A stretch of 5,965 nucleotides of DNA from a virus. Taxonomy: Duplodnaviria > Heunggongvirae > Uroviricota > Caudoviricetes. The position numbers were made by a program, and so were the translations under genes. The notes under the pieces were generated by a model. It worked only from the letters and a program-made list of their open reading frames with translations. It was not told the DNA's origin and ran no database searches. The stretch is from IMG/VR virus record IMGVR_UViG_3300029157_000020; one strand, written 5' to 3'. Position 1 is the first letter of the stretch; the number at the start of each line of letters is the position of its first letter. This document shows, one piece after another, positions 122 to 5,151 of this stretch.

Positions 122-1019
122 GCGGCGTACTTCGCAAAGCTGTCCGACTGAGGTACGCCTTTATCCGCGACAACAGCCGTTGCTGGCCTGTTCGTTTGCT
201 CTGTCGGGTTCTGGATGTCCATCCGAGTGGATTTTATTTCTGGCTTCAGCAGCCACATTCGCAGCGTCACCAGACAGATCAGATGCTGACCGGGCAAATC
301 AAACAGTTCTGGCTTGAGTCTGGCTGCGTCTATGGTTATCGCAAGATCCATCTCGATCTGCGTGATACCGGACAGCAGTGCGGAGTGAACCGGGTCTGGC
401 GGCTGATGAAGCGTGCCGGAATAAAAGCTCAGGTTGGGTACCGTAGCCCACGAGCACGTAAAGGCGAAGCCAGCATCGTGACACCCAACAGGCTCCAGCG
501 GCAGTTCAATCCGGACTCACCGGATGAGCGTTGGGTGACGGACATAACCTACATCCGAACCCACGAAGGCTGGCTGTATCTGGCCGTGGTGGTTGGCCTG
601 TTCTCCCGAAAAGTTATCGGCTGGTCAAGCAACCCCGCATGACAAAAGAGATTGTCCTGAACGCATTACTTATGGCGGTGTGGAGGCGTAATCCTCAAAA
701 GCAGGTACTGGTTCACTCTGATCAGGGTAGTCAGTACACGAGCCATGAGTGGCAGTCGTTCCTGAAATCACACGGTCTGGAAGGCAGCATGAGTCGTCGC
801 GGTAACTGCCACGACAACGCGGTTGCGGAAAGCTTTTTCCAGCTACTGAAACGCGAACGGATTAAGAAAAGGATCTACGGAACGAGAGACGAAGCCAGAA
901 GCGATATTTTTGATTATATCGAAATGTTTTATAACAGTAAGCGTCGGCATGGTTCGAGCGAGCAGATGCCACCGGCTGAATATGAAAACCTATATTATCA
1001 ACGGCTCAGAAGTGTCTAG
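122..1019 (+). pseudogene. IS3-family (IS911-like) transposase OrfB remnant, 5'-truncated by the IS30 insertion and frameshifted
   Basis: Frame 1 from 122 reads ...CRVLDVHPSGFYFW...ERWVTDITYIRTHEGWLYLAVVVGLFSRKVIGWS and stops at 640-642. Frame 3 then continues RMTKEIVLNALLMAVWRRNPQKQVLVHSDQGSQYTSHEWQSFLKSHGLEGSMSRRGNCHDNAVAESFFQLLKRERIKK...YNSKRRH... to TAG at 1017-1019. This is a typical IS3-family OrfB integrase core (DDE region, HSDQGSQYTS, GNCHDNAVAESFF) split by a frame change at about 615-640. No orfA and no left end are present; the sequence abuts the IS30 IRR. It resembles the IS30-interrupted IS911 arrangement I recall from E. coli K-12. The right boundary is uncertain, about 1019-1037. 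Confidence 0.8.
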
Positions 1020-1041
1020 ATTATCCGTGGCGATTCAATGG

Positions 1042-1173
1042 GGTAACCACTTTTGGTCACGTGGATACTTTGTAGATACTGTCGGTGTGAACGAGGAAAT
1101 TATCAGACGATATGTGCGGCATCAGGAGAAAATGGAGCAAATGCACGAACAGCAGATGGAATTGCTAGAGTAG
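1042..1173 (+). pseudogene. IS200/IS605-family TnpA (Y1/HUH transposase) C-terminal remnant
   Basis: Translation GNHFWSRGYFVDTVGVNEEIIRRYVRHQEKMEQMHEQQMELLE* closely parallels the IS200 TnpA C-terminus as I recall it (...FWCRGYYVDTVGKN...IKHQLEEDK...). Only about 44 codons are present and there is no in-frame N-terminal part. The upstream portion of the track ORF 910-1173 overlaps the IS3-family orfB and is not real. Confidence 0.65.
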
Positions 1174-1246: not shown

Positions 1247-2352
1247 CTAACTCTGTCTGCTTAGTTCATTTCCTAATGCAGGAAATTTACATGATATTAT
1301 AGATCTTGATAATCTGATAAATGGCCTTTCTACTACATTGTAGAAAATATATGCAGTGGTTATCGTTATGATGAACAAAAGGATAAGTCTGGACATTCCT
1401 ACCCACTGATTGTAAATTGGTATATTTGCTCCAAACTTATCTAAATACATGGTAATGGCAATATGCGTCAGATATAACGAATAAGAGATGTCACCGAAAA
1501 ATGATAGCATCTTTATCTCTTTTATCTCATTTTTCATTTCATAGGCAACAAGTGTCGCAATCAGCAGGATCGCCCATAATCCATAGTTAAAAGGCCCGTG
1601 TGCTGCTTTGTATTGAGCAAAGTAGAAACAGAAAACTAACGAGCATGAAATTACAGCAATGACATTAATTTTGGGGGGTGATGATATTACGTTTCTTAAT
1701 TCGTATACCATCATGCCAAATATGAATTCTATTAACATCGGCGATGAGGTAAACCGCAGGAATGCCGCTAAGCCTTCCGGCATTCCTGCCTGTAGTGCAA
1801 TTGCATTGTCACCTTCCATGCTAATACTGCCATTAAAGTAAAGTTGCAGACTGAACACAGAGACGGCAAGCATAAATTATGCAATCCATGATCTGTATTT
1901 ATGACTAATGCTCATCGCAACGAAGAATATCAGATAAAAATAAATCTCATAGGTCAGGGTCCACGCTTGCCCTATCATGTTGCCACCAAAGAACGGTGCC
2001 TGCTGGCTGTAGTCAGCCTGTATCAGTAACGCAGATCTCCAGAATGAAAAATTATCTTCGTTTGAAATAAATAAAATATTGCCAACGTAATAATAAACAA
2101 CGGATAAATCCTGAAGAATCTTTTTACAACATATTTAGTTAACATGTTGTCTTCACTCTTTGCGGTTGAAAGCGCAATAATAAATCCGCTAATCATGAAG
2201 AAAAGGTCTACCCCAAAGGATCCGCTTATGAACATTAAATCACCGAAATTCTTTATCGGATAAATATCATTAAGGTTACCTCTGAAGTGGAAGCCAACAA
2301 CCAATATGGCCGCAATGCCTCGAAGGTATTGAATAGAACGCACTTGCTGCAT
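1247..2352 (-). pseudogene. Acyltransferase family 3 (OafA/Oac-like membrane O-acyltransferase), disrupted by one frameshift and one in-frame TAA
   Basis: Minus-strand N-terminal ORF (ATG at 2350-2352; MQQVRSIQYLRGIAAILVVGFHF...GVDLFFMISGFIIA...RIYPLF...) stops at 2023-2025. The middle segment continues in another frame (...QAPFFGGNMIGQAWTLTYEIYFYLIFFVA...) to an in-frame TAA (complement of 1877-1879). The same frame then continues ...FFGDISYSLYLTHIAITMYL... to the stop at 1247-1249. These motifs are hallmarks of Pfam acyltransferase_3. Total length is about 367 codons. Strongly AT-rich. Confidence 0.75.
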
Positions 2353-2750
2353 AATTCTACCTAAGCTAGTTAATAATTTTCGTGTCGCGAATTGTAATCT
2401 ATATGAAAGCCTGTGTCAGCAATGCATCATTTGGACGTCAGAAGGTGTCGCGGTAGTCGATCGGGGTCTGGTCGTGCGGCTGGATGACATTCTACTCGCC
2501 ATTCTCGATGGTCGTAGCTACTTCGGTAAGGTAATGTAGAAAGTGATCATCACGGATTAAGATGATTCGATAGAAGGGGATTGTCTTGATGAGCTTGAAG
2601 CTGTTGTTACATCGGCCGCGCCGGATATCTCTGGCCTGAAAAACCTGCTTAACGAAGATTGCCGCCGCCCATCGTATGTAAGAACGGACGGCGGCTGGTT
2701 GCTCAGTGTTCATGCCCGAGCAAACGTCGGGGATAGTACCCAAGTTAAAA

Positions 2751-3017
2751 TTAAAGGCCAACCTGGCGAACGGGCGATAACTCAGATACCAGCCACATAT
2801 CTGCCTCTTCAAACATATCCTCCAGCATGCGGTTCAGCTTTTCCCGATCGTTTTTGCTGGCATCACTATTCAAGCCGTTCGCCTGCATTGGCTTTACCTT
2901 CACTTCTGCATCAGGAAAAATCTGGTGCACTCGCTTTGTTAGCTCAGCCAGGATGATCTCTCTGGCCCCTTGGAGCCCTTCAACATTTCGCTTGTCATAA
3001 ACCAGTTCAACAAACAT
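2751..3017 (-). CDS. DinI-family protein (DNA-damage-inducible protein I paralogue), 88 aa
   Basis: MFVELVYDKRNVEGLQGAREIILAELTKRVHQIFPDAEVKVKPMQANGLNSDASKNDREKLNRMLEDMFEEADMWLVSE... aligns by eye with E. coli DinI (...ELSRRIQYAFPDNEGHVSVRY...ILQETWESADDWFVSE). ATG at 3015-3017 (complement) is preceded by a good SD (AAGAGGA, 5-nt spacer). A minus-strand TTGACT -35 (complement of 3091-3096) and a LexA box lie upstream. Confidence 0.8.
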   Translation of the reverse strand: MFVELVYDKRNVEGLQGAREIILAELTKRVHQIFPDAEVKVKPMQANGLNSDASKNDREKLNRMLEDMFEEADMWLVSELSPVRQVGL

Positions 3018-3074
3018 ACCGATCCTCTTATAAGTGAAAAATTGCCTGTGCTTGATCTGTTTTCATAAAAATAA

Positions 3075-3094
3075 TACTGTATATGAATACAGTC
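3075..3094. promoter_or_regulatory. LexA (SOS) operator in the divergent intergenic region
   Basis: TACTGTATATGAATACAGTC has a perfect CTGT(3077-3080)-N8-ACAG(3089-3092) with an AT-rich spacer, matching the E. coli LexA box consensus TACTGT(AT)4ACAGTA. It sits between the -35 TTGACT and a TATTTT-like -10 of the minus-strand DinI-like promoter, and about 25 bp upstream of the plus-strand 79-aa ORF start. Confidence 0.7.
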
Positions 3095-3117
3095 AATAAG
3101 CGAATGAGGGTGCGTTA

Positions 3118-3357
3118 ATGCCTCGCCAACCGGATATTCGTGCTGCTTTTATTGCGGCCATACAGCAAAACCCTAAGGGCTATCTCTGCCTGCACAAAGA
3201 CAAATTCATCGCTGAACTGCAGGAGAGGCACTGGCATTTCAGCCTGGCGGATGCAAATTCATGGATCGAGCGATTCCAGCCGGAGTTCGCCGATAAGACG
3301 ACAAACGGAAGCGAGAACCGATACTGGATCCTGCGTAACATGGGGATGGTTTACTAA
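3118..3357 (+). CDS. Hypothetical 79-aa protein divergent from the DinI-like gene; putatively LexA-controlled
   Basis: ATG at 3118 is preceded by GAGGG (3106-3110, 7-nt spacer); stop TAA at 3355-3357. The translation MPRQPDIRAAFIAAIQQNPKGYLCLHKDKFIAELQERHWHFSLADANSWIERFQPEFADKTTNGSENRYWILRNMGMVY has balanced composition. The overlapping alternative frame (3140-3448) is Arg/Ser-rich junk. No family recognised. Confidence 0.55.
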   Translation: MPRQPDIRAAFIAAIQQNPKGYLCLHKDKFIAELQERHWHFSLADANSWIERFQPEFADKTTNGSENRYWILRNMGMVY

Positions 3358-3398
3358 TGGGATTTCCATCCCCAGCCATGGATTACTAGGAGCAGCGC

Positions 3399-3464
3399 AT
3401 GACGATAGATGTTATCTGCGGTGTAGACAACAACTGCCGGGTTATTGAAACTTCATGCGGCTAG
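3399..3464 (+). CDS. Possible 21-codon Cys-rich small ORF (MTIDVICGVDNNCRVIETSCG), or the 5' piece of a decayed gene
   Basis: ATG at 3399 is preceded by a canonical AGGAG (3388-3392, 6-nt spacer); stop TAG at 3462-3464. Downstream frames contain protein-like but interrupted segments. Weak call. Confidence 0.2.
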   Translation: MTIDVICGVDNNCRVIETSCG

Positions 3465-3740
3465 GCCGTTATTAACGTCAGTCTGAAGCCAGAAGAGGGG
3501 ATGCGTTGCTGGTTAGCATGGACGGGAGAAACCAGTTTGTGAAGCTAATGGGTCAGGCGCTGATCACTTAAGATGGTGAAGCGATTGAAGGGGAAGCTCT
3601 GAATGATGTAACGGTGCACGGCGTTCTTACACATACACTTAACCAGGTTAAAGACGATAAATCGCCTGTAATGTAGCGTGTAACTGTCGGTGGTTATTCC
3701 CCAATTTTTCCCCAATGCTTCCCCGTACAAATTTCAAACA

Positions 3741-3781: not shown

Positions 3782-3831
3782 TGGTCGGCACGAGAGGATT
3801 TGAACCTCCGACCCCCGACACCCCATGACGG
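3782..3831 (-). tRNA. Truncated tRNA-Pro (anticodon GGG, proL-like): 3' 50 nt only (positions about 27-76); not a functional gene
   Basis: Minus-strand sequence CCGTCATGGGGTGTCGGGGGTCGGAGGTTCAAATCCTCTCGTGCCGACCA contains the anticodon loop (U33, GGG at 34-36), variable loop, T-arm (GGAGG-TTCAAAT-CCTCT), acceptor 3' strand and CCA. It matches the 3' half of E. coli tRNA-Pro(GGG) as I recall it. Beyond 3831 the sequence (ATGTTCAAATTT...) no longer matches the D-arm or acceptor 5' strand. Confidence 0.75.
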
Positions 3832-3858
3832 ATGTTCAAATTTCTTCTAGCTTATCTA

Positions 3859-4272
3859 TTAGAGTAATTGAAGAGTCCGCAAAGTTATTTGCAGCGTCCT
3901 GTGGAATTTCAAAATTATGTTTATATGCAGCCATGTTACGCAGTTGCGTAAGCTATCGTGTAGAGCTGCAAAATCTAAATCAACCAAGCCAGCTTTATAA
4001 AGCAAGCGCATAAGATGATATCCATTCATTAGCTCAAAGCGTCGGTCGTTTGAATGAGGAGGCAATTCAATTGTTCCAACATCAACTTTTCGTTTCACAC
4101 CATTCCGCAATGAATTTTCAAGTTTCAGATAGGATTTCATAACATTCTCATAAGGGCTTAAGAAAAAAGTCCTTGTAACGCTCTGAGTTGTCTTTTTCTT
4201 TATCTGAAATAATTTCAGCCTACCCAGCAGCTTCTGCTGCTTGCTCTTCATACATAATCTCAAACTTATCAT
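3859..4272 (-). CDS. Hypothetical protein, 137 aa, AT-rich, Lys-rich N-terminus; no family recognised
   Basis: A 414-nt open frame in strongly AT-rich DNA, which is unlikely by chance given the stop-codon density. ATG at 4270-4272 (complement) has no obvious SD; internal Met codons at residues 8 and 45 are alternative starts. It ends 28 bp from the tRNA fragment breakpoint. Contains an R-x6-H spacing (RNCVTWLH), but this is too weak to assign a HEPN-type fold. Confidence 0.45.
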   Translation of the reverse strand: MISLRLCMKSKQQKLLGRLKLFQIKKKTTQSVTRTFFLSPYENVMKSYLKLENSLRNGVKRKVDVGTIELPPHSNDRRFELMNGYHLMRLLYKAGLVDLDFAALHDSLRNCVTWLHINIILKFHRTLQITLRTLQLL

Positions 4273-4746
4273 ATTTTATTGATTTTATTGTTCTAATAAG
4301 TTTGAAAAGGTCATATCGACCGTAATAGAGAAAACTGGCCAAAAGAACTGGCCAGGCTAGCGACTTGATCATTGATGACAGGAATGTCAGAAAATCCATT
4401 GTCTTTGCTTTTCATCGAAGTAGAGATAGAGTATATGTTACAAAATCGTTCTCCTAAATGAAAGTAAATCATCTATATTTCAGCATGTCAGATTTTGTGG
4501 TTCAGCGTTAAAAAAATCTCTGTAATTAAGTGGTTTATCAAAATAACAAGGCCTTAAGATACTTTTTTAATTTAATGCTGTCAGCATTATCGATAAAGCG
4601 CAATTCAGGCTTAATGCCCTGGCTATTAACGCTGGTTCATTCACTATGTCGCCTGGTTATAACATCACCTAGCGCTGGTTCGCTATTGCGAGTTAGCTAA
4701 GACAATTAAATTCAGCGTAAAAGCACAGGCGTTTTATGATGAAAAT

Positions 4747-5151
4747 TTGAGTGTTATCCCGGCTGATGCTGTAGACTTTACTCAAGAAGAACATATTCAT
4801 CTCATCGCCGGGATGAATGATGGTGAGCAACGTGTCTGCAGTGATACAGGCGGGAAATTGATGCTGTCTGGCCGCAGACCTTCTCAATGGTATACCTGGG
4901 ATAATGATAATAATGCGTGGGCTATTTCGGATCATGCACGGGTCCAGCTTGCAGAAGCTGAGAAATTTCGTCGAATCCATGAGGCAAACGACTTTATCAA
5001 TAACCAGCAATTGCCTGGCAAAACTGCCATGGGGCGACTGAAAGATTCAGAGAAAGAACACTACAATTTGTGGCTGGATTATCTTAAAGCGCTGGAGGCG
5101 GTCGATACATCAACTGCGCCAGATATCCTCTGGATAGATAAACCTGAATAA
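4747..5151 (+). CDS. tfa: Phage tail-fiber assembly protein (Tfa family); orphan, and possibly 5'-defective
   Basis: The C-terminal region ...[26 protein letters not shown]...[33 protein letters not shown] parallels lambda/Rac-type Tfa C-termini (...WVKDTEAEKLFRIREAEE...[26 protein letters not shown]). There is no in-frame ATG: the frame opens after TAA at 4660-4662, the first start-like codon is TTG at 4747, and an ATG-ATG at 4736-4741 with an AGG upstream is in a different frame and hits TGA after 4 codons. No tail-fiber gene lies upstream (4273-4660 is AT-rich non-coding). Confidence 0.75.
   Translation: [134 protein letters not shown]

What the first reader, a model, noticed from the sequence alone, without database searches (positions are those of the whole stretch)
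2751..3357. Perfect LexA box shared by a divergent DinI-like gene and an unclassifiable 79-aa ORF: candidate SOS-triggered prophage antirepressor-type switch
Seen directly: a CTGT-N8-ACAG operator (3075-3094) lies inside the promoter of a DinI-family gene (-35 TTGACT, good SD) and about 25 bp upstream of a divergent 79-aa ORF with its own SD. Established knowledge: DinI paralogues in prophages are LexA-controlled. As I recall, Salmonella Gifsy-type prophages and coliphage 186 (Tum, which has a DinI-like domain) use small LexA-repressed antirepressors, encoded near the prophage end rather than in the immunity region, to couple induction to SOS. Inference: the 79-aa protein is a candidate LexA-controlled effector (antirepressor, division inhibitor or small toxin) of that kind. 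Its position next to tail-fiber remnants and a tRNA att scar fits the end-of-prophage location. It has no family I can name, so it could be a new member or a new type.
Basis: partly seen in the sequence, partly recalled or inferred. Interest (0 to 1): 0.68.

Follow-up and report, generated by a model that had tools for sequence, protein, structure and literature searches.

The report
SOS-controlled dinI / orf79–humD phage cassette
One LexA operator in a decaying prophage remnant controls a DinI gene on one side and, on the other, a small conserved winged-helix protein gene that is normally the first gene of an operon with a phage UmuD'-like (HumD) gene; it looks like a DNA-damage accessory cassette, not the prophage's induction switch, and what the small protein does is still untested.

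Summary
A 17/20 LexA box (3075-3094, core CTGT-N8-ACAG) lies between an intact DinI-family gene (2751-3017, minus strand) and an intact 79-aa ORF (3118-3357, plus strand). The ORF is a real gene: family-wide dN/dS is about 0.1, it matches PHROG 3893 (unknown function), and at least 529 clusters of homologues were found.

The stop codon of orf79 overlaps (TAATG) the start of a HumD/UmuD'-like gene. In this window that gene is a pseudogene (3357-3676) with three stop codons and one frameshift.

Across 232 non-redundant related loci, down to 37% protein identity:
- An exact LexA box lies 16-26 nt upstream of orf79 in about 94%.
- A HumD-like gene follows directly in about 92%.
- dinI is present in only 7 of 32 loci in the species-balanced set.

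The conserved unit is therefore LexA box, orf79, humD'. It is not dinI plus orf79.

The antirepressor reading failed every test I could run:
- orf79 has no similarity to Gifsy, 186 Tum or probable N15 AntC proteins.
- In Gifsy the antirepressor lies downstream of dinI, not divergent from it.
- All five phages examined that carry orf79 have self-cleaving CI repressors (HTH plus Peptidase_S24).

The predicted fold is a generic winged helix. This is a new variant of the known phage LexA-dinI/humD cassette. Interest is moderate.

The parts
2751..3017 (-). dinI-like gene (88 aa), intact
   Evidence: Pfam DinI E 2.3e-23; PHROG 189 'RecA filament binding protein DinI'. About 90-93% identical to the copies next to orf79 in related phages.
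3068..3096 (-). dinI promoter: -35 TTGACT (3096-3091), 17-nt spacer, -10 TATTTT (3073-3068). The LexA box fills the spacer and overlaps the -35.
   Evidence: Promoter scan, 9 of 12 matches. AGTCAA is invariant in the five-sequence alignment.
3075..3094 (.). LexA operator TACTGTATATGAATACAGTC (core 3077-3092), shared by both promoters
   Evidence: Only match in the window. 17 of 20 to consensus. An exact core is conserved 16-26 nt before the orf79 ATG in 100 of 112, 73 of 74 and 44 of 46 related loci.
3052..3080 (+). Inferred orf79-humD promoter: -35 TTGATC (3052-3057), 17-nt spacer, -10 TACTGT (3075-3080, the first six bases of the LexA 20-mer)
   Evidence: TTGATC at this spacing is conserved in loci with and without dinI. 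The annotated SOS promoter p95 of phage 186 has the same layout: its -10 is the TACTGT of its LexA site. The match is below the threshold of the promoter scanner, so this is an inference.
3118..3357 (+). orf79: small predicted winged-helix protein, PHROG 3893, function untested; leader cistron of the operon
3357..3676 (+). humD/umuD'-like pseudogene (short 106-aa variant). ATG overlaps the orf79 stop. Disrupted by TAG at codon 11 (3387), TAG at codon 36 (3462), a 1-nt deletion in the 3490s and TAA at 3569-3571.
   Evidence: Alignment with the intact copies in E. coli CX21 and phage Flotzy; translation. The intact homologue starts MGFPSPAMDYQEQR like UmuD' (PDB 1umu/8gmt). It has a weak NCBIfam HumD hit and aligns end to end with the 129-aa HumD.
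3782..3831 (-). 3' 50 nt of tRNA-Pro, an att scar that marks the prophage end
   Evidence: Exact 50-nt match to the 3' part of the tRNA-Pro beside the same cassette in E. coli CX21. ARAGORN finds no complete tRNA in the window.

Best explanation
This is the SOS accessory cassette that lambdoid and N15-like siphophages of Enterobacteriaceae carry between the tail-fibre genes and att.

One LexA operator sits inside two back-to-back promoters. Leftwards it represses a dinI homologue. Rightwards it represses a two-gene operon, orf79-humD', whose second gene encodes a ready-made UmuD'-like protein.

After DNA damage, RecA* drives LexA self-cleavage and both promoters fire. The cell then receives DinI (a modulator of the RecA filament), Orf79, and HumD, translated by coupling through the TAATG overlap.

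Orf79 is a conserved 79-aa predicted winged-helix protein. Its most likely role is as an accessory or regulator of the HumD/RecA*/translesion branch of the SOS response. It may bind a conserved partner or DNA site through its invariant helix 3, wing and C-terminal tail. It is unlikely to be the prophage's induction switch.

In this window the prophage is a remnant. humD' is dead, its ribosome-binding site inside orf79 is mutated (R77M), and orf79 shows relaxed constraint.

Shown by the evidence: the anatomy, the conservation, the linkage and the fold class. Inferred: LexA binding, the exact promoter, and the role of Orf79.
For: Anatomy:
- The box, the genes and the pseudogene are established.

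Linkage of orf79 to the LexA box and humD:
- In 113 close loci, an exact LexA core lies within 60 nt upstream in 100 of 112 (5 more have one mismatch). A HumD-like gene lies downstream in 97 of 107, and its ATG overlaps the orf79 stop in 94.
- In two subfamilies only 37% and 42% identical to the window protein, the box is present in 73 of 74 and 44 of 46 loci. MGFPSPA-HumD follows directly in 66 of 71 and 44 of 46.
- dinI is present in only 7 of 32 species-level loci.
- The dependence is one-sided. HumD genes, short or long, occur without orf79 in about half of their loci. For the short form a LexA box then lies directly upstream of humD (32 of 33 such loci); most of the long-form loci without orf79 have only a two-mismatch box.

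The gene is real and conserved:
- dN/dS is 0.11 overall and 0.08 in the C-terminal half.

Fold:

Precedents for the cassette without orf79:
- phiKO2 has dinI, LexA box, umuD'; N15 gene 26 has its own box; P1 has lxr, LexA box, humD.
- The promoter layout matches p95 of phage 186.

Decay in this window:
- Four residues unique to this copy sit at conserved positions, and dN/dS against the closest relatives is 0.34-0.43.
Against: No experiment or interaction prediction links Orf79 to HumD.

Nearly identical orf79 genes (about 90% identical to the window) sit in front of both HumD variants, which are only 26% identical to each other. The two genes therefore do not co-evolve. orf79 could simply be exploiting a convenient LexA-controlled slot.

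A few loci keep orf79 without humD. One is the viable phage HK225, where orf79 is extended to 99 aa.

The copy in this window may no longer be functional.
Confidence: 0.55

Rival explanations
1. Orf79 is a LexA-controlled antirepressor that binds and inactivates a phage repressor. The target is either this prophage's own repressor or, in trans, the non-cleavable repressors of co-resident prophages. This would couple induction to the SOS response.
For: Orf79 is small, LexA-controlled and encoded outside the immunity region, like GfoA/GfhA, Tum and AntC (PMC3121763). Its N-terminal half is variable (dN/dS 0.175 against 0.08 for the C-terminal half), which could carry specificity. There is precedent for an antirepressor in a phage that itself uses a cleavable repressor: FsoA of Fels-1 (PMC3121763 abstract).
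Against: No sequence or profile similarity to the Gifsy-1 gene after dinI, to Tum, or to the probable AntC (probabilities 0.6%, 0.06% and 0.1%). Gifsy antirepressors lie downstream of dinI in the same operon. Five of five orf79-carrying phages have CI repressors with HTH, Peptidase_S24, a GDSM serine and a conserved lysine. The near-obligate coupling to humD' across deep divergence is not predicted by this model. The conserved surface (helix 3, wing, tail) is the same across phages whose CI repressors are only 19-62% identical to that of HK140.
Confidence: 0.12
2. Orf79 is a stand-alone winged-helix DNA-binding regulator. After SOS induction it binds a conserved DNA site. It could feed back on its own divergent promoter region or act on another phage or host promoter. 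It would act independently of HumD.
Against: The protein carries almost no net charge (10 K/R against 9 D/E, counted). No extra conserved repeat beyond the LexA box and the promoter hexamers is visible in the intergenic region. Many winged-helix domains bind proteins. This model does not explain the constant pairing with humD'.
Confidence: 0.2
3. Orf79 is another kind of SOS-timed effector: a small toxin, a division inhibitor, a superinfection-exclusion factor or an anti-defence factor. On this view it sits in the humD slot only because that slot provides LexA control.
For: Positions next to tail-fibre genes and att are typical for morons. HumD does not need orf79: about half of HumD loci lack it. 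orf79 and humD variants recombine freely.
Against: Nothing in the sequence or the model points to a toxin or a membrane protein. The model is a soluble globular winged helix, and Pfam, NCBIfam and PDB sequence searches returned nothing. I did not run the PADLOC library. The position of orf79 is held over 37-42% identity, where a free-moving moron would be expected to turn up in other contexts.
Confidence: 0.1

Closest known systems
phiKO2 genes 22/23 and N15 gene 26: LexA-box-controlled divergent dinI / umuD'-like cassette at the end of the tail-gene arm
   Same: The position after the tail-fibre genes is the same. phiKO2 has the same dinI homologue transcribed leftwards, a single annotated LexA site between the two genes, and a UmuD'-like gene beginning MGFPSPA transcribed rightwards.
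   Different: These phages have no orf79; their LexA box lies directly in front of humD. In the window an extra 79-aa cistron sits between the operator and humD', and humD' is a pseudogene.
Phage P1 lxr / humD (HumD, a functional UmuD' analogue, LexA-regulated)
   Same: A LexA site lies in a divergent regulatory region in front of humD. The record notes that P1 HumD functionally complements UmuD'. The long HumD next to orf79 in E. coli MEI4O1-23 is 71% identical to P1 HumD.
   Different: The divergent partner in P1 is lxr (190 aa), not dinI. P1 has no orf79. The window's humD' belongs to a shorter 106-aa variant that is below the Pfam S24 threshold.
Gifsy-1/-2/-3 dinI-gfoA/gftA/gfhA-irsA operons (LexA-controlled antirepressors)
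   Same: A LexA box precedes a prophage dinI homologue, and a small protein (about 70-80 aa) is under the same SOS control outside the immunity region (PMC3121763).
   Different: In Gifsy the antirepressor lies downstream of dinI on the same strand. There is no detectable homology. Gifsy repressors lack the S24 domain, whereas the repressors of orf79-carrying phages have it.
Coliphage 186 Tum and its promoter p95
   Same: The promoter design is the same: the -10 hexamer is the TACTGT of the LexA box. Both are SOS operons near a genome end.
   Different: Tum is 146 aa with a DinI-like C-terminal half. Orf79 has no DinI domain and no similarity to Tum.
Acinetobacter ddrR / umuDAb pair (small damage-induced protein encoded next to a UmuD-like protein)
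   Same: This is an analogy only. A small gene of unknown function is genetically tied to a UmuD homologue and is induced by DNA damage (PMC3978071).
   Different: ddrR is divergent from umuDAb and restricted to Acinetobacter, and UmuDAb is itself the repressor. I had no DdrR sequence, so no comparison was made.

Membership tests
LexA (SOS) regulon operator | CTGT-N8-ACAG palindrome close to the 20-mer consensus | tested here: met
   Exact core at 3077-3092, the only one in the window. 17 of 20 to TACTGTATATATATACAGTA.
LexA (SOS) regulon operator | The operator overlaps promoter elements of the controlled genes | tested here: met
   The box lies in the spacer and -35 of the dinI promoter. It supplies the inferred -10 TACTGT of the orf79 promoter, as in p95 of phage 186. 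The promoter assignment is an inference.
LexA (SOS) regulon operator | The site is conserved in orthologous loci | tested here: met
   Exact core in 100 of 112, 73 of 74 and 44 of 46 loci, 16-26 nt before the ATG.
LexA (SOS) regulon operator | LexA binding and damage-inducible, lexA-dependent transcription | not testable with these tools
   Needs EMSA or ChIP, and RT-qPCR in lexA+ against lexA(Ind-) cells.
DinI family (PF06183) | Profile match above the curated cut-off | tested here: met
   82.7 bits against a cut-off of 24.2, E 2.3e-23.
Gifsy-type antirepressors (GfoA/GftA/GfhA/FsoA) | Sequence homology to the family | tested here: not met
   hhalign of the orf79 profile against the Gifsy-1 73-aa gene after dinI (STM2621.1n) gave probability 0.6%. 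Caveat: I identified that ORF as the antirepressor gene from its position and the operon order given in PMC3121763.
Gifsy-type antirepressors (GfoA/GftA/GfhA/FsoA) | The gene lies downstream of dinI in one LexA-controlled operon | tested here: not met
   orf79 is divergent from dinI. The Gifsy order is dinI-antirepressor-irsA.
Gifsy-type antirepressors (GfoA/GftA/GfhA/FsoA) | The cognate phage repressor is short and non-cleavable (no S24 domain) | tested here: not met
   HK140, HK225, Flotzy, mEp390 and Midgardsormr38 all have repressors with HTH plus Peptidase_S24 and conserved GDSM and Lys. This window holds no immunity region, so the test was done on relatives.
Gifsy-type antirepressors (GfoA/GftA/GfhA/FsoA) | Binds the repressor and releases it from the operator | not testable with these tools
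   Needs pull-down or EMSA, or a complex prediction.
Tum (coliphage 186) type | Antirepressor half fused to, or followed by, a DinI-like domain | tested here: not met
   No DinI domain in Orf79. hhalign against Tum gave probability 0.06%.
N15 AntC | Sequence homology | tested here: inconclusive
   No similarity to the 75-aa ORF behind the second LexA box of N15 (probability 0.1%). That this ORF is antC is my inference, because the original paper (PMC1951935) is not held.
HumD / UmuD' family (downstream gene) | Starts at the post-cleavage glycine with the GFPSPAxDYxExR arm, followed by an S24-like beta domain | tested here: met
   MGFPSPAMDY in the window. The intact homologue aligns to UmuD' residues 25-49 (PDB 8gmt/1umu; weak, E 0.06-0.07) and end to end to the 129-aa HumD (E 1e-9). 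The NCBIfam HumD score is only 33.6 bits against a cut-off of 120, and there is no Pfam S24 hit for the short variant. This is therefore a diverged relative.
HumD / UmuD' family (downstream gene) | Intact reading frame in this window | tested here: not met
   Three in-frame stops and a 1-nt deletion.
PHROG 3893 (unknown function) | Full-length profile match | tested here: met
   E 7.1e-38, residues 1-78 of the protein against positions 1-78 of a 79-position profile.
Winged-helix fold | H1-beta-H2-H3-beta-wing-beta topology | tested here: met

The most novel reading that the evidence does not exclude
Orf79 founds an uncharacterised family of SOS-induced winged-helix proteins that act directly on the UmuD'/HumD, RecA* and Pol V axis. 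It might bind the invariant GFPSPAxDY arm of HumD, or LexA or RecA. If so, phages would carry a three-part module (DinI, Orf79, HumD) that tunes host mutagenesis and SOS timing.
Probability: 0.3. Interest if true: 0.65.

Novelty: new variant of a known kind. Interest (0 to 1): 0.4.

Why it matters
Phage-borne UmuD' homologues and DinI homologues are known SOS-controlled passengers. Why phages carry them, and how their activity is set, remains unclear.

Here a third gene has the same control. It is strongly conserved (dN/dS about 0.1) and widespread, with at least 529 protein clusters across Enterobacter, Escherichia, Klebsiella, Erwinia, Pantoea and other genera. It is almost always welded to humD' and has never been studied.

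If it modulates Pol V-type mutagenesis or the duration of the SOS response, it would bear on stress-induced mutagenesis and antibiotic-driven evolution in lysogens.

If instead it proves to be a trans-acting antirepressor, it would extend prophage cross-talk to phages that have cleavable repressors.

For this particular window the biological weight is small, because the cassette sits in a decaying prophage remnant.

Tried and rejected
Searches that returned nothing useful for Orf79:
- Pfam, NCBIfam and a PDB sequence search. The PDB hits at E 0.01 or worse (Vip3, PARP1) are noise.
- Foldseek against BFVD returned only the family itself.
- The afdb50 library was not available.

Literature:
- The Mardanov and Ravin paper on N15 AntC is not held. 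I located a probable antC ORF from the second LexA box of N15 instead.
- Searches for humD, LexA and prophage, and for dinI, umuD and lambdoid, found nothing about this gene.

Technical dead ends:
- The search for related loci with the divergent alignment A6 failed for lack of a conserved stretch. I used single distant members instead.
- I considered predicting an Orf79-HumD complex. The apparent natural fusions (P0157, P0249, P0274) are frameshifted read-throughs, not true fusions.

Ideas considered and dropped:
- The ORF is spurious. Rejected by dN/dS of 0.11 and 91 distinct intact coding sequences.
- Short HumD needs orf79. Rejected: 32 of 72 short-HumD loci lack orf79 and have the LexA box directly upstream.
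Full report

Yes.
- The window contains exactly one CTGT-N8-ACAG, at 3077-3092. The chance expectation is 0.04 per window, and 7 of 200 shuffles gave one or more.
- The 20-mer TACTGTATATGAATACAGTC (3075-3094) matches the LexA consensus at 17 of 20 positions.
- To its left, on the minus strand, the ORF at 2751-3017 is a DinI-family protein (Pfam E 2.3e-23; PHROG 189). It also has an AAGAGGA ribosome-binding site.
- To its right, the 79-aa ORF at 3118-3357 begins 25 nt after the core of the box, behind a GAGGG ribosome-binding site.

**2.

The TAA of orf79 overlaps an ATG (TAATG) that opens a reading frame beginning MGFPSPAMDY. GFPSPAxDY is the N-terminus of processed UmuD' (PDB 1umu and 8gmt; weak matches, E 0.06-0.07).

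Several relatives have an intact gene of 106 or 129 codons at this position. These are phages Flotzy, HK140 and mEp390 and the E. coli strains CX21 and MEI4O1-23. The gene is annotated UmuD-like or HumD in all but CX21, where it is listed as a hypothetical protein.

In the window it is a pseudogene spanning 3357-3676. It carries TAG at codon 11, TAG at codon 36, a 1-nt deletion and a TAA.

Directly after it lie the 3' 50 nt of tRNA-Pro (3782-3831, minus strand). This is the att scar, and no complete tRNA is present.

The rest of the window is debris:
- IS3-type transposase fragments.
- An IS200-type fragment.
- A split acyltransferase gene.
- A tail-fibre assembly gene that belongs to other DNA.

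**3. Is orf79 a gene?**

Yes.
- It matches PHROG 3893 (unknown function) at E 7e-38 over its full length. It has no Pfam or NCBIfam hit.
- A profile search found at least 529 protein clusters. An exhaustive HMMER scan found 157 clusters at 50% identity. Wherever a source names these proteins, they are called hypothetical, apart from a stray 'DNA polymerase V' label.
- Across 91 distinct intact coding sequences, dN/dS is 0.11. It is 0.175 for codons 1-39 and 0.08 for codons 40-79, and stays at 0.08 when the 3' end that carries the humD ribosome-binding site is left out.
- The copy in this window is the odd one out. It alone has K27, F53, E56 and M77 at positions that are 87-97% conserved. Its dN/dS against its nearest relatives is 0.34-0.43.
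- R77M also damages the GGGAGG ribosome-binding site of humD, which lies inside the last codons of orf79. This fits a cassette that is decaying.

**4. What is orf79 linked to?**

I surveyed 113 loci of the close family: 33 from one genome per species and 80 viral contigs.
- An exact LexA core lies within 60 nt upstream in 100 of 112, always 16-26 nt before the ATG. Five more have one mismatch.
- A HumD-like gene lies downstream in 97 of 107. In 94 of these its ATG overlaps the orf79 stop.
- A divergent dinI is present in 72 of the 80 closest viral contigs, but in only 7 of 32 loci in the species-balanced set.

Two distant subfamilies, 37% and 42% identical to the window protein, give the same answer.
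- The LexA core is present in 73 of 74 and 44 of 46 loci.
- MGFPSPA-HumD follows directly in 66 of 71 and 44 of 46 loci.

The dependence runs one way. Of 72 short-HumD loci, 33 lack orf79, and 32 of those have a LexA box directly in front of humD. Of 72 long-HumD loci, 39 lack orf79. In those 39, dinI is still divergent in 36, but only 3 have an exact box and the rest carry a two-mismatch motif.

The cassette without orf79 is already known:
- phiKO2 genes 22/23, with an annotated LexA site.
- N15 gene 26.
- P1 lxr/humD.

The window therefore holds a variant of a known phage SOS cassette, with an extra and highly conserved leader cistron.

**5. The promoter**

A TTGATC hexamer lies 17-18 nt upstream of the TACTGT that begins the LexA 20-mer. 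It is conserved both in loci with dinI and in loci without it.

The annotated SOS promoter p95 of phage 186 has the same design: its -10 is the TACTGT of its LexA site.

I therefore place the orf79-humD promoter at 3052-3080. LexA would occlude its -10 and, at the same time, the spacer and -35 of the dinI promoter. This placement is an inference, because the hexamers fall below the scanner's threshold.

**6. Testing the antirepressor idea**

(a) Gene order.
- In Gifsy prophages the operon is dinI-antirepressor-irsA on one strand (PMC3121763).
- In the Gifsy-1 record it sits between the replication genes and ninG/Q, not at the prophage end.

(b) Homology. The orf79 profile gave these hhalign probabilities:
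- 0.6% against the 73-aa Gifsy-1 gene after dinI.
- 0.06% against Tum of phage 186.
- 0.1% against the probable N15 antC ORF.

(c) Need.
- HK140, HK225, Flotzy, mEp390 and Midgardsormr38 all carry orf79.
- All five encode CI repressors with HTH plus Peptidase_S24 domains, an invariant GDSM serine and a conserved lysine.
- The Gifsy-1 repressor has an HTH domain only.
- These phages can therefore respond to RecA* directly.

None of this excludes an antirepressor that acts in trans on other prophages. FsoA of Fels-1 is a precedent (PMC3121763 abstract).

**7. Fold**

The AlphaFold2 model was built from 54 sequences and has pLDDT 82.5 and pTM 0.68. Its elements are H4-14, a beta-hairpin at 15-26, H27-36, H43-53 and a beta-wing at 57-72.

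An independent BFVD model of HK225 gp29 agrees with mine (TM 0.94).

Invariant residues cluster in helix 3, the wing and the C-terminal tail. Residues 23-38 vary. The protein carries almost no net charge. The fold does not tell us whether the ligand is DNA or protein.

**8. Most likely mechanism**

DNA damage leads to RecA*, LexA self-cleavage, and firing of both promoters. The cell then makes three proteins:
- DinI, a modulator of the RecA filament.
- Orf79.
- HumD, translated by coupling. HumD is a pre-processed UmuD' analogue; P1 HumD is recorded as complementing UmuD'.

I judge Orf79 most likely to be an accessory or regulator in this HumD/RecA*/translesion branch. That specific role has a probability of about 0.4. 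The anatomy of the cassette is about 0.9 certain.

The main caveat is that nearly identical orf79 genes precede two HumD variants that are only 26% identical to each other. There is no co-evolution between the two genes. If they interact, the contact is more likely with the invariant N-terminal arm of HumD or with a host partner.

The rival explanations and my confidence in each are:
- Independent winged-helix DNA-binding regulator: 0.2.
- Trans-acting antirepressor: 0.12.
- Another SOS-timed effector: 0.1.

**9. Novelty and verdict**

The LexA/dinI/humD cassette is known. DinI and HumD belong to known families. Orf79 is catalogued (PHROG 3893) but uncharacterised, and its fixed place as leader of the humD operon does not appear in the papers I could search.

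I class the finding as a new variant of a known kind, of moderate interest. Orf79 is a good experimental lead in an intact relative. The copy in this window is part of a dying prophage.

Noticed in passing
window 3357-3676: HumD/UmuD'-like pseudogene directly coupled to orf79. It carries TAG at codon 11, TAG at codon 36, a 1-nt deletion and a TAA. The same lineage changed R77 of Orf79 to M, which weakens the GGGAGG ribosome-binding site of humD.
   Followed up: yes
L049, L054, L070, L087, L088 versus L048, L051 and others (viral contigs): orf79 genes about 90% identical to the window are followed either by the 106-aa or by the 129-aa HumD variant, and the two variants are only 26% identical. 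The conserved orf79 3' end and humD 5' end look like a recombination joint for swapping modules.
   Followed up: partly
L002 5339-5638 (phage HK225): In HK225 humD is replaced by a DNA invertase gene. The breakpoint falls in the last two codons of orf79, which loses its stop and runs on to 99 aa. This is a viable phage that keeps orf79 without humD.
   Followed up: partly
L005 12565-12832 (N15 record 39564-39831): A second LexA box in N15 (CTGTGTTTATATACAG) lies between genes 47 and 48. It is followed by an unannotated 75-aa ORF and a hairpin with a T-run, read as a likely terminator. This is probably antC, and the RefSeq record does not annotate it.
   Followed up: partly
L341, L343, L344 and about 30 other long-HumD viral contigs: Where long HumD is paired with dinI but lacks orf79, the spot 21 nt upstream of humD holds CTGTGTTTTTATCCGG, which has two mismatches in the right half-site. 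This is either a degenerate LexA box or a different operator.
   Followed up: no
window 196-1173: IS3-family transposase split over two overlapping frames (HTH_21/rve at 196-642; rve/rve_2/rve_3 at 531-1019). It abuts the C-terminal fragment of an IS200-type Y1 transposase (910-1173).
   Followed up: partly
window 1247-2352 (minus strand): An Acyl_transf_3 gene (O-antigen-acetylase type) broken into two ORFs, 2023-2352 and 1247-1873. It is probably a disrupted phage conversion gene.
   Followed up: partly
window 2661-2695: A GC-rich hairpin, GCCGCCGCCC...GGACGGCGGC, lies between the tail-fibre 3' remnant and the end of dinI. It resembles the sequence after N15 gene 25, and phiKO2 annotates a bidirectional terminator at the same spot. 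It has no T-run and the terminator scan did not call it.
   Followed up: partly
window 3832-5151: Beyond the tRNA-Pro fragment the DNA is unrelated and AT-rich. It holds ORFs without Pfam hits (3859-4272, 4220-4399) and then a Caudo_TAP tail-fibre assembly gene (4747-5151). A second element appears to be inserted at the same tRNA site.
   Followed up: no
L001 6147-6162 (phage Flotzy): A second CTGT-N8-ACAG lies downstream of humD, next to the small ORFs that precede the integrase gene.
   Followed up: no
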